Positions 43,017 through 48,809 of a DNA stretch of 64,000 bases are shown here, one piece after another. Made by a program: the position numbers and the translations under genes. The stretch is from an uncultured Croceitalea sp. GTDB taxonomy: Bacteria > Bacteroidota > Bacteroidia > Flavobacteriales > Flavobacteriaceae. Location: NCBI RefSeq assembly GCF_947495075.1, contig NZ_CANLXH010000004.1, one strand, 5' to 3'. Below the pieces are notes generated by a model. It was given only the letters and a program-made list of their open reading frames with translations, searched no databases and was not told the DNA's origin. Numbering within the stretch: position 1 is the stretch's first letter; each line of letters begins with the position of its first letter.

Positions 43017-45419
43017 CTATTGAGGCTGTATCTCAACTGTAATAACATTATAACCACCTCTTGGATCTCCAACATAAACAACACCTGCTGGGTTATTATA
43101 TGCTCCTTTACCAAATTGTACATCGGTAAGGAAAGTTCCATTGCTTGGTCCTACTCTTCTAATAATGTTATTAGGATCGTCAGCACCTGTGTTACGTGCA
43201 CCTTGTCTTGGAGCTTGATCAGCACCAAATCCAGTAAGTTGATCTATTTCGGTACCTGAATCGAATAAATAAGACTTTTCACTTGCACCAAAACCAGATA
43301 CAGGAGTACCGTTTTCATCAAATAATGGATAACCTGCATTGTTATAAGATATAAACCAATCGTTTGTATCAACGAACATTGTTGAAAAACCAAATTTAAA
43401 GTCTTGGTCTTGTGGTACAGTTAAGGTAAAAGTTAAGCTTTCCCCTGGACCAACATTTGATGTTTGATCACTTGCTGCGACTGGTATACCTAAATTTGTT
43501 AAGTACTCTAAAGCAACCGCGTTGTTACCATCTTCTGCTATTTGCTCAAGACCGTTATCAGGATTATTAACTTCTCCTTGCAATACGAAAGGATCTCTTT
43601 CTCCATTAAAAGCATATACTACACCTGGAGAGAATACTGTACGAGTAGAAGTTAAACGTAAGAATCCGCTACTACCTTCTTCTCTATAAAAGTTAAACAA
43701 TTCATCTGGATTACCATCTTCGGCAATACCTTCAAGGCCTTCACCTCTATCAACATCTCCTAAACTAAATAAAGGCGCTACATTAGCATGTAAAGCAACG
43801 ATACCAGGGGTAACAACAAATCCATTTTGTGAACTTGGTGCTTGTGCTGGGTCCGGAGTTCTAACAGCCGTAATTGTAAATGTAAATGTACCTGCTTCAC
43901 CAGTACCTTCAGCATAATTCAATACTGCAGTCATATAAAAATCACCTCTTCTACCGCCTCTATCAACTAAGCGAATAGAAGTATCAGGATCAGCTGGACC
44001 CACATTGGCTCCTGCTGGAGGGAAAGTAGCTGGATCGTTATCCGCTTCTGTACCTAAGTCATAAAGAACAAGTTCATTTGCAATATCAACACCATTTAAA
44101 GGTGCACCACTCTCGTCCCAAAGAGGGATACCAGCTAAATCTTCCGGCGCTAAATACCAGTCATTACTATTACCCATCATTGTAATAGGGGTAAATCTAG
44201 TTCCAGGAACAGCTTGAAAACTTATTTGATACTGATCGCCGTTTTGGGTCAAAGGACCACGAGTAGGAGCTTCAGCACCTCTTAAACGATCTGTAAAAGT
44301 ATGTACGTTAAAAATTCTTGCAGCGTTGGTAATAGTTACATTGAACGTAGTTGTTCTAGCAGTTGCATCATTAGACTCACCTAAAGATGGGATAGCCTCT
44401 TCAGTCCAATCAGATGAAGCATCTCCTTCACCATCATATTCTATACTAGCAGATTGGCCAACACCAGGAACAAAATCACCAGCTGCCCAGATACCAGCTT
44501 CAGCAGCAACGTTCTCACGTGGACTTCCAGCAGCACCCCATTGTACGAAATCTACAATAGCATCTGCACTAGTGAAAGAGTTATTAGAATATAGACCAAG
44601 ACCTTCTTCATCACCCATTGCCAAAGCTCCTTCTAATTGCAATACTAAAAACTCACCTGCAGGTAATTCAGCTGTACCACTAACGGCAGTAAGATTACCT
44701 ATTTGACCATATCTACCTGGGCCAAAGCATATCCAGTAAGAACTTAAATCTACAGTGATATCACCATTATTATAAATTTCAACACGATCAAGGTTCCCAT
44801 ACTGTACTTCATTTAAAACAATAGATCTAAGCTCTACAGGCACTGTTAATACATTTTCAGCACCAATAGTTACGGTAGTAGTTTCTGCCCAATCAGAAGC
44901 ACTATCACCTTCACCATCATAAACAATACTGTAATTTTCATTGCCCATTACAGGAACAAATTCTCCAGCTGTCCAAATACCCGCATCAACAGCAACGTTC
45001 TCACGTACTGCACCAGCAGCTCCCCATTGTACAAAATCTGCAATGTTTGCTGGGTCACCAAATCCATCATTATTAATGTAAAGTCCTAAACCGCCATTAG
45101 TATTTGGCATGTCATAAGAAACACTTAAATACTCTCCTGCTCCTAATTGGAGGTTACCTTCTGTTTCTAGTGCGCCTATTTGTCTGTAAGTACCTGGCGC
45201 TAGGCATAGAAAATAATTTTCTAGATCAACTACAACATCACCGTTGTTAAAAATTTCAACCCTGTTCCCTAAATATTCTACTTCATTTAGTACTACAGAA
45301 GCTACTCCTGTTGGAGGTGTTTGGTCTACTGGACCTTCTTGTTCAGGAATTGTATCGTCTTCTGAACAAGCTACTATCAAAAATGATAGTGCTAATAATT
45401 TAAAAAAATTCTTTTTCAT
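43017..45419 (-). CDS. Spondin-domain lipoprotein with two N-terminal tandem repeats
   Basis: Lipobox IVAC; two about 150-aa repeats; spondin-like TM...SNDW...YDLGTE and STMFV.TNDWF...FDSGTE. Confidence 0.75.
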   Translation of the reverse strand: MKKNFFKLLALSFLIVACSEDDTIPEQEGPVDQTPPTGVASVVLNEVEYLGNRVEIFNNGDVVVDLENYFLCLAPGTYRQIGALETEGNLQLGAGEYLSVSYDMPNTNGGLGLYINNDGFGDPANIADFVQWGAAGAVRENVAVDAGIWTAGEFVPVMGNENYSIVYDGEGDSASDWAETTTVTIGAENVLTVPVELRSIVLNEVQYGNLDRVEIYNNGDITVDLSSYWICFGPGRYGQIGNLTAVSGTAELPAGEFLVLQLEGALAMGDEEGLGLYSNNSFTSADAIVDFVQWGAAGSPRENVAAEAGIWAAGDFVPGVGQSASIEYDGEGDASSDWTEEAIPSLGESNDATARTTTFNVTITNAARIFNVHTFTDRLRGAEAPTRGPLTQNGDQYQISFQAVPGTRFTPITMMGNSNDWYLAPEDLAGIPLWDESGAPLNGVDIANELVLYDLGTEADNDPATFPPAGANVGPADPDTSIRLVDRGGRRGDFYMTAVLNYAEGTGEAGTFTFTITAVRTPDPAQAPSSQNGFVVTPGIVALHANVAPLFSLGDVDRGEGLEGIAEDGNPDELFNFYREEGSSGFLRLTSTRTVFSPGVVYAFNGERDPFVLQGEVNNPDNGLEQIAEDGNNAVALEYLTNLGIPVAASDQTSNVGPGESLTFTLTVPQDQDFKFGFSTMFVDTNDWFISYNNAGYPLFDENGTPVSGFGASEKSYLFDSGTEIDQLTGFGADQAPRQGARNTGADDPNNIIRRVGPSNGTFLTDVQFGKGAYNNPAGVVYVGDPRGGYNVITVEIQPQ
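44370..45299 (-). repeat. Internal tandem duplication in the spondin lipoprotein gene
   Basis: Units 45299-44853 and 44825-44370; identical 16-mer AGCAACGTTCTCACGT at 44505 and 44991. Confidence 0.85.
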
Positions 45420-45499
45420 AATAATTATATTTTTGATTTATTAATTTTTGATGATGCAAATGAACTATCAAAAAGAGCCTTAAACACTAGTAAATTGGG

Positions 45500-45535
45500 T
45501 AAAACGGAATTTTTGGCTTTAAAACGGAATTTTTG
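45500..45535. promoter_or_regulatory. Perfect 16-bp direct repeat, 20-bp period; putative LytTR binding site
   Basis: TAAAACGGAATTTTTG at 45500-45515 and 45520-45535, between the divergent spondin and LytTR genes. Confidence 0.6.
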
Positions 45536-45701
45536 CAATAGTTGTTAACGCTATTGTTTTCAGTTGTTTACGAGGTTTATGTGGAAAATCTCATTACAAT
45601 TGTATTAAATTGCAGAAAACTATTTATTGGAGGTATAAAATTTTATTCGGCTATCTGTATCTTAGTATTTTGATACTAAAAAATCATGTTCTCCCATCAA
45701 T

Positions 45702-47770: not shown

Positions 47771-48317
47771 ATGGAATATATTCGAACCTAAACATTACTT
47801 TTATTTCTTTGGCTATATTCGGCGCCAATAATGACGGTATCTTTATATTAAAATCCGAAACACTTACTTCAAAGTCTCCCTCCAATACATAATTGCCATT
47901 TAAATTCTCAATTTTTGTTTTGAACTCGATTTCTTTTTTGATACCATGAAAATCCATGATTCCTTTAATTATTTTTGTTTGTGGCCCTTTTGTCTTAGCT
48001 TCAAAAGCTATAATTTCTCCCACAAAAGTTAACTTAGGATAAATATCGGACTCTACATAACTCTCGTTAAAGTGTTCTTCCATCAATGCCTTTTTGAATA
48101 CAAAAGCACGCATTAACATGTCTACAACAATTTTATTGCTAGATGTTTCGATTATACTGGACACCAGATTATTAGTTGCCTCTATATTTTCTACAGAAGT
48201 ATAAGAAAAAAAGGATACTTGACCTTGTCTAGAAATTACTCTGCTATCACTTTGGGCCGATACCCCAAAATGAAGCAAAAGAAACATAATTATAATAGTA
48301 TTAACTAGTCTTTTCAT
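47763..48317 (-). CDS. YceI family protein
   Basis: G.VSFFS....ENIEA.N, F.F.KALMEEHFNE.Y.ES..YP. Confidence 0.85.
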   Translation of the reverse strand: MKRLVNTIIIMFLLLHFGVSAQSDSRVISRQGQVSFFSYTSVENIEATNNLVSSIIETSSNKIVVDMLMRAFVFKKALMEEHFNESYVESDIYPKLTFVGEIIAFEAKTKGPQTKIIKGIMDFHGIKKEIEFKTKIENLNGNYVLEGDFEVSVSDFNIKIPSLLAPNIAKEIKVMFRFEYIPYE

Positions 48318-48741
48318 TGATTGGCATGCAATTTAACATAATTACGTCTAAAAGATAACCTTTACAAACACCCCTTAGAACAACAGTATCACCTATGGTA
48401 AATTTATGAACTTTATCGTTCCCTAATGGAGACATATCACATATTACAAAACTTTGGGTAAAACTTTTACTGTTTAATATAATCGTATGTCTATTATTTA
48501 AAAAGGAAATCTCCTTTATAACTCCTTCCACTTCTATAACCTTTTCCACAAAGGTTGCATTTGCTTTTTCTTCATCGTCCTTAAACATCGTTATTACATC
48601 ATCTATTGGAATCTGATTGATATTCTCTATCTCAGATACATCTATATGCATTGGTCTGTTATAAAAATTATATAGCATCATGCAAGCAAAAATCACTGTC
48701 AGCAACAATCCAAATACCCTAATTTTTACTTTCTTATGCAT
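48301..48741 (-). CDS. OB-fold (tRNA_anti-like) membrane-anchored protein
   Basis: TM, F..DE..AN..F..K.IEVEG.I, V.L.G.C.G.L.DV.M..C. Confidence 0.7.
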   Translation of the reverse strand: MHKKVKIRVFGLLLTVIFACMMLYNFYNRPMHIDVSEIENINQIPIDDVITMFKDDEEKANATFVEKVIEVEGVIKEISFLNNRHTIILNSKSFTQSFVICDMSPLGNDKVHKFTIGDTVVLRGVCKGYLLDVIMLNCMPINEKTS

Positions 48742-48779
48742 TCCTTAAATCTACTTGATAAAGGTTAATCTTTGTAAAA

Positions 48780-48809
48780 CGGGTAAGGCATTCTTAAGAA
48801 GCTTACCCG
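48780..48809. promoter_or_regulatory. Nested inverted repeat upstream of the OB-fold/YceI/barrel operon
   Basis: CGGGTAAG 48780-48787 / CTTACCCG 48802-48809 around palindromic TTCTTAAGAA. Confidence 0.45.

What the first reader, a model, noticed from the sequence alone, without database searches (positions are those of the whole stretch)
43017..48809. Candidate undescribed system: one-component membrane LytTR controlling spondin lipoprotein and OB-fold/YceI/beta-barrel genes
Seen: a TM-sensor-TM-LytTR gene without a receiver domain, flanked by the divergent spondin gene and a convergent overlapping three-gene operon. A perfect 16-bp direct repeat with 20-bp period lies upstream of spondin, and GTAAAACGG occurs upstream of both units (45499-45507 and 48774-48782). 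Known: LytTR domains bind direct repeats about two helical turns apart; YceI proteins bind lipophilic ligands. Inference: a module that senses a periplasmic ligand and induces a surface binder, an outer-membrane channel and a periplasmic carrier.
Basis: partly seen in the sequence, partly recalled or inferred. Interest (0 to 1): 0.7.

Follow-up and report, generated by a model that had tools for sequence, protein, structure and literature searches.

The report
Membrane Cache-LytTR switch with envelope regulon
A marine flavobacterium (Croceitalea) has a membrane-anchored sensor that is also a DNA-binding switch; its conserved two-box DNA site lies in front of three gene units for unstudied cell-envelope proteins, the switch and its sites are kept across many genera, and I found no published description.

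Summary
The genes and the perfect 16-bp repeat are as described. The 385-aa protein is TM, single Cache/PDC sensor, TM, coiled coil, LytTR, with no receiver domain.

The repeat is a real operator. A 36-bp matrix built only from orthologous loci in other genera finds three outstanding sites in the 3.7-Mb genome:
- 45500-45535, upstream of the spondin gene
- 48888-48923, upstream of OB-YceI-DUF5777
- an unlinked site upstream of a small cytochrome-c lipoprotein gene

Each site lies exactly 35 bp upstream of a Bacteroidetes-type -7 box. Of 58 sites in 80 related loci, 52 share this geometry. That position indicates an activator.

It is part of a terminator-like hairpin in the OB leader.

The regulator is linked to YceI+DUF5777 in 49 of 74 loci, and co-occurs perfectly with DUF5777 in the genus (12/12 present, 4/4 absent). 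Distant homologues sit next to haem/cytochrome P460 genes instead.

The regulatory wiring is well supported in silico. The signal and the function are inferred: most likely handling of a lipophilic redox molecule in the envelope. No published description was found, though other windows of this scan met the same module.

The parts
42956..42992 (-). Terminator-like hairpin just after the spondin stop codon. It indicates that spondin is monocistronic here.
   Evidence: 17-pair stem followed by a T-run.
43017..45419 (-). 800-aa lipoprotein (signal ...LIVAC) with 2 lamin-tail (LTD) domains and spondin-type domains. Regulon target 1.
   Evidence: Orthologues lie 75-90 bp from an operator in 14 related loci.
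45457..45464 (-). -7 promoter box TTCATTTG of the spondin gene (Bacteroidetes type, TAnnTTTG). It lies 35 bp from the operator edge and about 38 nt upstream of the ATG.
45500..45535 (+). Operator 1: two perfect 16-bp boxes TAAAACGGAATTTTTG with a 20-bp period.
   Evidence: Scores 36.5 bits on a matrix built from other genera, the top hit in the genome. Conserved in all 12 loci of the genus.
45702..46859 (+). Membrane one-component regulator: TM1 (about residues 7-30), periplasmic single Cache/PDC domain (about 31-185), TM2 (about 186-208), coiled coil to about 256, flexible linker, LytTR domain 277-384.
46865..47770 (-). DUF5777, a 12-stranded outer-membrane beta-barrel with a signal peptide.
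   Evidence: AlphaFold2 model pLDDT 86, pTM 0.81, 12 strands. Foldseek matches NanC, FapF, OmpG and the COG4313 channel.
47763..48317 (-). Periplasmic YceI-like lipocalin with a signal peptide.
48301..48741 (-). N-terminally anchored OB-fold protein (tRNA_anti-like). First gene of target operon 2.
48777..48812 (-). Terminator-like hairpin plus U-run inside the roughly 100-nt leader of the OB operon. Possible attenuator.
   Evidence: Fold -27.9 kcal/mol, z -3.2. Stem changes with pairing kept in L066, L067, L071, L053 and L065.
48845..48852 (-). -7 box TTCATTTG of the OB-YceI-DUF5777 promoter, 35 bp from operator 2.
48888..48923 (+). Operator 2: TAAAAAGGAATTTTAAGCTTTAAAGATGAAATAAAA, between the stop codon of the metallo-beta-lactamase-fold gene and the OB promoter.
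   Evidence: 25.1 bits, third best in the genome, against a reversed-genome maximum of 18.6. An equivalent site is found in L053, L065, L066, L067 and L071.

Best explanation
The 385-aa protein is a membrane-tethered one-component transcription activator.

Shown in silico:
- The N-terminus is cytoplasmic. Then come TM1, a periplasmic single Cache/PDC sensor, TM2, a long coiled coil, a disordered linker and a LytTR DNA-binding domain. There is no receiver domain.
- Its operator is two (rarely three) boxes T(G/A)A(A/G)A(G/C)GGAA spaced 20 bp apart, always pointing the same way relative to the target gene.
- The proximal operator edge lies about 10 bp from a -33 TTTG and exactly 35 bp from the -7 box. 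The operator therefore spans roughly -49 to -84, an activator position.
- This genome has three such promoters: the spondin/LTD surface lipoprotein; the OB-anchor, YceI and DUF5777 operon; and an unlinked small c-type cytochrome lipoprotein gene.

Inferred:
- A coiled-coil dimer places one LytTR domain on each box when a periplasmic signal changes the sensor.
- The products form one envelope module that moves or redox-cycles a lipophilic, isoprenoid-quinone-like molecule, or electrons. The route would run from the inner-membrane anchor through the YceI carrier and cytochrome c to the outer-membrane barrel and the surface lipoprotein.

My confidence is about 0.85 for the regulatory wiring and about 0.3 for the function.
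For: Architecture:
- Pfam LytTR and no receiver domain.
- AlphaFold2 model with pLDDT 79.
- Foldseek matches the LytTR domains of 3d6w (TM 0.89), AgrA and ComE, and the sensors of WalK, TlpB, Mlp24/37 and DcuS.
- Homologues carry Pfam Cache hits.

Operator:
- It is conserved in all 12 loci of the genus, whichever gene is divergent from the regulator.
- It is conserved out to Chryseobacterium, Pedobacter and Bacteroidales.
- The matrix, built without this genome, scores the three sites 36.5, 31.9 and 25.1 bits. The next hit scores 21.0 and the reversed-genome control reaches 18.6.
- Only these three sites have TTTG at +40.
- The third site precedes a homologue (E 5.5e-28) of the cytochrome-c gene that heads the regulator-linked operon in relatives.

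Geometry: 58 sites in 1.26 Mb of related loci. 52 have TTTG at +38 to +42, and 44 of those at exactly +40. The median distance from operator edge to ATG is about 76 bp.

Linkage:
- YceI plus DUF5777 lie within 8 kb of the regulator in 49 of 74 loci.
- In the genus, 12 of 12 genomes with the regulator have DUF5777 and 4 of 4 without it lack DUF5777.
- The operator stays with the regulator where the targets differ (Haem_bd-P460).

Function by analogy:
- YceI pairs with cytochrome b561 in the BcnA-LcoA system, which detoxifies lipid peroxyl radicals (PMC9113575).
- YceI-like ubiquinone-8-binding domains are fused to c-type cytochromes in Cbp2D (PMC8981238).
Against: - There is no binding, expression or transcription-start data.
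- This genome encodes four other LytTR-domain proteins. Assigning the operator to this one rests on co-localisation only.
- Operator 2 is weaker (25 bits), and a terminator-like hairpin lies between its promoter and the OB gene.
- The signal is unknown. The Cys of the sensor motif CHP, present in at least 90% of the 39 aligned family members, is Ser in this protein.
- Outside the genus DUF5777 also occurs without this regulator.
- The redox reading rests on guilt by association. Spondin, OB and DUF5777 have no known cofactor.
Confidence: 0.7

Rival explanations
1. The wiring is the same, but the module is an uptake route. The surface lipoprotein captures a lipophilic nutrient or signal, the DUF5777 barrel passes it through the outer membrane, YceI carries it across the periplasm, and the Cache domain senses the same ligand.
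For: YceI proteins bind lipophilic ligands (established knowledge; PMC8981238). The DUF5777 model resembles small 12-stranded channels, including the COG4313 channel. A surface lipoprotein heads the operon in many relatives.
Against: No inner-membrane transporter or catabolic enzyme is linked in any of the 80 loci. The recurring companions are redox proteins: cytochrome c, cupredoxin-tailed protein, cytochrome P460.
Confidence: 0.2
2. The regulon is a metal (copper) or thiol-reactive stress response. The sensor detects the metal or oxidant through a Cys-His pair, and the products buffer it in the envelope.
For: Related loci carry an HMA-like protein and a Lipoprotein_15 protein whose C-terminus has a cupredoxin-like H...C...H...M pattern (sequence reading only; Pfam reported only Lipoprotein_15). 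The sensor motif CHP is conserved in at least 90% of the family alignment.
Against: This genome's regulon has neither the HMA-like nor the cupredoxin-tailed gene. This sensor has Ser in place of Cys. No efflux pump or multicopper oxidase is linked.
Confidence: 0.1
3. The repeats are bound by another factor, for example one of the four response-regulator-type LytTR proteins of the genome, or the Cache-LytTR protein acts as a repressor rather than an activator.
For: Other LytTR-domain proteins exist in the genome. No experiment assigns the site.
Against: The operator follows the Cache-LytTR gene across genera even where the target genes change. It lies upstream of the -33 element rather than over the core promoter.
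Confidence: 0.07

Closest known systems
LytTR response regulators AgrA, ComE, BtsR/YpdB and AlgR
   Same: The LytTR fold. Paired direct repeats about two helical turns apart placed just upstream of the promoter, and activation (established knowledge of these families).
   Different: There is no receiver domain and no partner kinase. The DNA-binding domain is fused directly to a transmembrane Cache sensor. The period is 20 bp, the box is GGAA-centred, and the promoter is the Bacteroidetes -33/-7 type.
Membrane-bound one-component regulators ToxR, CadC and TcpP
   Same: A single polypeptide joins a periplasmic sensor and a cytoplasmic DNA-binding domain, so the DNA must be bound at the membrane.
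   Different: The output here is LytTR rather than an OmpR-type winged helix. There are two TM helices with a Cache sensor and a long coiled coil, rather than one TM helix.
Cache-LytTR and sensor-LytTR architectures in domain censuses (PMC4822843; PDB 3d6w from Bacillus cereus)
   Same: The same combination of domains. Transcription factors, including LytTR, are listed among Cache outputs.
   Different: Those are catalogue entries or an isolated domain structure. I found no operator, regulon or signal described for any member.
BcnA (YceI lipocalin) and LcoA (cytochrome b561) lipid peroxyl-radical detoxification system (PMC9113575)
   Same: A YceI-family lipocalin is genetically coupled to a cytochrome, acts in the envelope and is stress-induced.
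   Different: The cytochrome here is a small c-type lipoprotein, not membrane b561. Extra components are present: an OB-fold anchor, the DUF5777 barrel and the spondin lipoprotein. The regulator is different.
Cbp2D and Cbp2E of Cellvibrio japonicus (PMC8981238)
   Same: [quoted passage not shown]
   Different: Those are single fused proteins with carbohydrate-binding modules that serve LPMOs. Here the parts are separate proteins, with no CBM or LPMO nearby.

Membership tests
LytTR DNA-binding domain family (PF04397) | Sequence and fold match to the LytTR domain | tested here: met
   Pfam E 1.5e-14, 54 bits against a cut-off of 22.6. Foldseek 3d6w TM 0.89, plus AgrA and ComE.
LytTR DNA-binding domain family (PF04397) | Binds paired direct repeats about two helical turns apart | tested here: inconclusive
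   A conserved 20-bp-period repeat sits next to the gene in dozens of genera. Binding itself cannot be tested with these tools.
Two-component response regulator (AgrA/LytR/AlgR type) | N-terminal receiver domain with a phospho-acceptor Asp, and a partner histidine kinase | tested here: not met
   No Response_reg hit. The N-terminal 270 residues are TM, Cache, TM and coiled coil. NCBIfam BtsR and LytR models match only the C-terminal part, at 20 bits against cut-offs of 246-375. No kinase is found in the neighbourhood.
Cache / PDC extracytoplasmic sensor superfamily | A long N-terminal helix followed by an alpha/beta PDC fold between two TM helices | tested here: met
   AlphaFold2 secondary structure. 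Foldseek hits to WalK, the TlpB sCache, Mlp24/37 and DcuS. A weak profile hit to DcuS. Homologues carry PF08269, PF17201 or PF17200. The window protein itself has no Pfam Cache hit at E <= 0.01.
YceI-like lipocalins (PF04264) | Domain match and export signal | tested here: met
   E 2.5e-11, 44.6 bits against a cut-off of 23.7. An N-terminal signal peptide is visible in the sequence.
YceI-like lipocalins (PF04264) | Bound polyisoprenoid or quinone ligand | not testable with these tools
   Needs the purified protein and lipid analysis.
DUF5777 outer-membrane barrel (PF19089) | Domain match and a closed beta-barrel | tested here: met
   E 9.7e-60. 12-strand model, pTM 0.81. Matches outer-membrane barrels in the PDB.
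BcnA-LcoA peroxyl-radical detoxification system | YceI gene linked to a cytochrome b561 gene | tested here: not met
   No b561 gene lies in the window cluster or in the 80 related loci. The linked cytochromes are c-type. This is a resemblance in logic only.
Intrinsic terminator or attenuator (the hairpin at 48777-48812) | GC-rich stem followed by a U-run, with the stem kept through compensatory change | tested here: met
   Whether it terminates, and whether it is regulated, was not tested. No Rfam family matches.

The most novel reading that the evidence does not exclude
The three promoters define a previously unrecognised trans-envelope pathway of Bacteroidota. An inner-membrane OB-fold anchor, a YceI quinone or lipid carrier, a small c-type cytochrome, a 12-stranded DUF5777 barrel and a spondin-domain surface lipoprotein would together carry electrons or a lipophilic redox cofactor to the cell surface. 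The pathway would be switched on by a Cache-LytTR membrane-tethered activator, for which I found no characterised example, and further gated by a leader attenuator upstream of the OB operon.
Probability: 0.25. Interest if true: 0.8.

Novelty: new variant of a known kind. Interest (0 to 1): 0.6.

Why it matters
LytTR regulators are known almost only as response regulators of Gram-positive quorum sensing and a few proteobacterial systems. Here the domain is wired directly to a periplasmic Cache sensor. The operator is sharply defined and the promoter geometry is fixed across Flavobacteriaceae and beyond. This gives a ready-made test case for how a membrane-tethered LytTR activates a Bacteroidetes sigma-A promoter.

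The regulon also ties several unstudied protein families to one switch: DUF5777, tRNA_anti-like OB anchors, bacterial spondin domains and Lipoprotein_15. It ties them as well to YceI and c-type cytochromes. The function of a widespread envelope module in marine, often alga-associated bacteria therefore becomes testable with one knockout and three reporters.

Tried and rejected
Rejected: chance level and part of a hairpin.
- Searching the genome for near-exact copies of the 16-mer found nothing meaningful. The regulon appeared only with a matrix built from other genera.
- Four lower-scoring genome hits (18.7-21.0 bits). Rejected: they lack the -7 box at +40.
- A small-peptide reading of the ATG inside the OB leader. 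Rejected: the peptide is not conserved, only the RNA stem is.
- Rfam search of 45380-49000: no real hit.
- Sequence searches of YceI, OB, spondin and DUF5777 against the PDB: no useful hit.
- Literature searches for DUF5777, COG4315 and LytTR+YceI returned nothing. The LytTR+Flavobacteri results looked irrelevant by title or abstract, and the one paper I opened was.
- Pfam Spond_N does not hit the lipoprotein. The 'spondin' label rests on NCBIfam NF038123.
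Full report
**Observation**

The window comes from a Croceitalea genome (Flavobacteriaceae). Contigs of genomes from the same genus bear that name.

- an 800-aa lipoprotein gene at 43017-45419 (-)
- divergent from it, a 385-aa gene at 45702-46859 (+)
- convergent with that gene, with 5 nt between the stop codons, the operon OB 48301-48741, YceI 47763-48317 and DUF5777 46865-47770 (-), whose genes overlap by 17 and 8 nt

Pfam and NCBIfam confirm the following:

| Protein | Family | E-value |
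|---|---|---|
| Regulator | LytTR, no receiver domain | 1.5e-14 |
| YceI | YceI | 2.5e-11 |
| Barrel | DUF5777 | 9.7e-60 |
| OB protein | tRNA_anti-like | 2.9e-17 |
| Lipoprotein | Lamin tail domain (LTD) | 2.2e-10 |
| Lipoprotein | spondin-type domain (NCBIfam) | 5.8e-47 |

The 16-bp repeat TAAAACGGAATTTTTG is perfect, at 45500-45515 and 45520-45535. These are the only exact copies in the genome.

The shared 9-mer GTAAAACGG is present at both stated places, but it is at chance level.

**The regulator**

An AlphaFold2 model from a 39-sequence alignment (pLDDT 79) shows these elements:
- a helix over residues 3-61 (TM1 plus stalk)
- an alpha/beta domain over residues 66-171
- one long helix over residues 172-256 (TM2 plus coiled coil)
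- a disordered linker
- a beta-rich domain over residues 277-384

Foldseek matches the C-terminal domain to LytTR structures: 3d6w at TM 0.89, AgrA and ComE. It matches the N-terminal part to PDC/Cache sensors: WalK, TlpB, Mlp24/37 and DcuS. Many homologues carry Pfam Cache hits.

The protein is therefore a membrane-tethered Cache-LytTR one-component regulator. The architecture is listed in the Cache census (PMC4822843). I found no characterised member.

**The operator is real**

All 11 orthologous loci in the genus keep a 20-bp-period repeat in the divergent intergenic region. This holds whether the divergent gene is spondin or a small cytochrome-c lipoprotein gene.

The same repeat, with consensus TGAAAGGGAA-N10-TTAAAAGGGAAT, lies upstream of orthologues in many other groups:
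- Maribacter, Saonia, Flagellimonas and Aquimarina
- Polaribacter, Tenacibaculum and Flavobacterium
- in degenerate form, Chryseobacterium, Pedobacter and a Bacteroidales MAG

I built a 36-bp matrix from 32 sites in related loci, none from this genome. In the 64-kb window it finds only two sites at 12 bits or more: 45500-45535 (36.5 bits) and 48888-48923 (25.1 bits).

In the whole 3.7-Mb genome the top three hits are those two plus contig 1 (C1):1011729-1011764 (31.9 bits). The next hit scores 21.0 bits, and the reversed-genome control reaches at most 18.6.

The third site precedes a 141-aa CxxCH lipoprotein. That protein is homologous (E 5.5e-28) to the cytochrome-c gene that heads the regulator-linked operon in relatives.

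**Promoter geometry**

This test is independent of the matrix, which covers only the 36 bp of the operator.

In 80 related loci (1.26 Mb) there are 58 distinct sites of at least 25 bits. All point the same way relative to the gene they precede.
- 52 of 58 have TTTG starting 38-42 nt beyond the proximal operator edge, 44 of them at exactly +40. This is the Bacteroidetes -7 box TAnnTTTG.
- A second TTTG cluster at +8/+11 fits a -33 element.
- The median distance from operator edge to ATG is about 76 bp.

In this genome only the three top sites have TTTG at +40.

The operator therefore lies at about -49 to -84, abutting the -33 element. That is an activator position.

**Linkage**

- YceI plus DUF5777 lie within 8 kb of the regulator in 49 of 74 loci with a full-length homologue. 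48 of those also have the OB gene.
- Five of the remaining loci are cut by contig ends.
- The targets that carry an operator are spondin (14 loci), cytochrome-c lipoprotein (27), Lipoprotein_15 with or without a cupredoxin-like tail (18), and the OB-YceI-DUF5777 triad.
- In the genus, the 12 genomes with the regulator all have DUF5777 and the 4 without it lack DUF5777. Fisher p is about 5e-4, not corrected for phylogeny.
- In distant homologues (Flavobacterium, Chryseobacterium, Pedobacter) the divergent operon encodes a Haem_bd-cytochrome P460 fusion and a P460-like lipoprotein instead. A recognisable repeat remains next to the regulator in the loci I inspected: it scores 32-40 bits in the closer Flavobacterium loci but falls below the matrix threshold in most Chryseobacterium and Pedobacter loci.

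GTAAAACGG at 48774 is the 3' foot and U-run of a hairpin at 48777-48812 on the minus strand. The fold is -27.9 kcal/mol with z -3.2.

The hairpin lies downstream of the OB promoter's -7 box (48845-48852), inside a leader of about 100 nt. Relatives keep a sequence block, ATCAATGGGAAACATTGTTGCTATGAA, followed by a hairpin whose stem sequence differs while pairing is kept. No Rfam family matches.

It may be an attenuator. It may also double as the terminator of the upstream metallo-beta-lactamase-fold gene.

**Function (inferred)**

- The DUF5777 model is a 12-stranded outer-membrane barrel (pTM 0.81) that resembles NanC, FapF and OmpG.
- YceI proteins bind isoprenoids and quinones. They are coupled to cytochromes in two studied systems: BcnA-LcoA (PMC9113575) and Cbp2D/E (PMC8981238).
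- The recurrent company of c-type cytochromes, P460, HMA-like and cupredoxin-tailed proteins suggests envelope redox chemistry around a lipophilic carrier, rather than simple nutrient uptake.
- The sensor has conserved motifs FDWSG...CHP and NSDWI.AAHAN. The Cys is Ser in this protein. The signal is unknown.

**Limits**

Assignment of the operator to this LytTR protein rests on co-localisation.

Notes from other windows of this scan describe the same module. I treated them as leads only. The analogies they named were checked against the cited papers.

Noticed in passing
window 48742-48850 (-): The leader of the OB operon has a small conserved hairpin (CAAUGGGAACAUUG), a conserved block, and a strong terminator-like hairpin with compensatory stem changes in five relatives. 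It is a possible transcription attenuator or short RNA. No Rfam family matches.
   Followed up: partly
window 45660-45681: A perfect inverted repeat, TTAGTAT-TTTG-ATACTAA, lies about 20 nt upstream of the LytTR start codon and overlaps a -7-like TATTTTG. It may be a second operator or a 5'-UTR hairpin controlling the regulator's own expression.
   Followed up: no
own genome, contig 1 (C1):1011533-1011650 (outside the window): Between the third operator/promoter and the cytochrome-c lipoprotein gene lies a 34-codon hydrophobic ORF (MKKTIYLYLLPPLL...). Its ATG is at the canonical distance of about 80 bp. It could be a small membrane peptide or the remnant of a signal sequence.
   Followed up: no
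L041/L052/L068 and similar loci (Croceitalea, Saonia, Ulvibacterium): Larger versions of the regulon have a paralogous second YceI-OB-DUF5777 set, an 86-aa HMA-like protein with a Cys-rich tail, and a Lipoprotein_15 protein that ends in a cupredoxin-like H...C...H...M motif. Each unit has its own operator.
   Followed up: partly
L092, L100, L109, L111, L113 (Flavobacterium, Chryseobacterium, Pedobacter): Distant Cache-LytTR homologues are divergent from a Haem_bd-cytochrome P460 fusion gene plus a P460-like lipoprotein gene. In the two Flavobacterium loci L092 and L100 a TonB-dependent-receptor-sized gene (about 800 aa; not domain-checked) lies convergent with the regulator, and L100 also has a possible PepSY_TM gene (not domain-checked).
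   Followed up: partly
window 48941-50392 (-): A SoxH-like metallo-beta-lactamase-fold gene and a PepSY_TM-like membrane protein gene sit directly upstream of operator 2. This is conserved in several Croceitalea and Croceivirga loci. Neither has an operator of its own.
   Followed up: no
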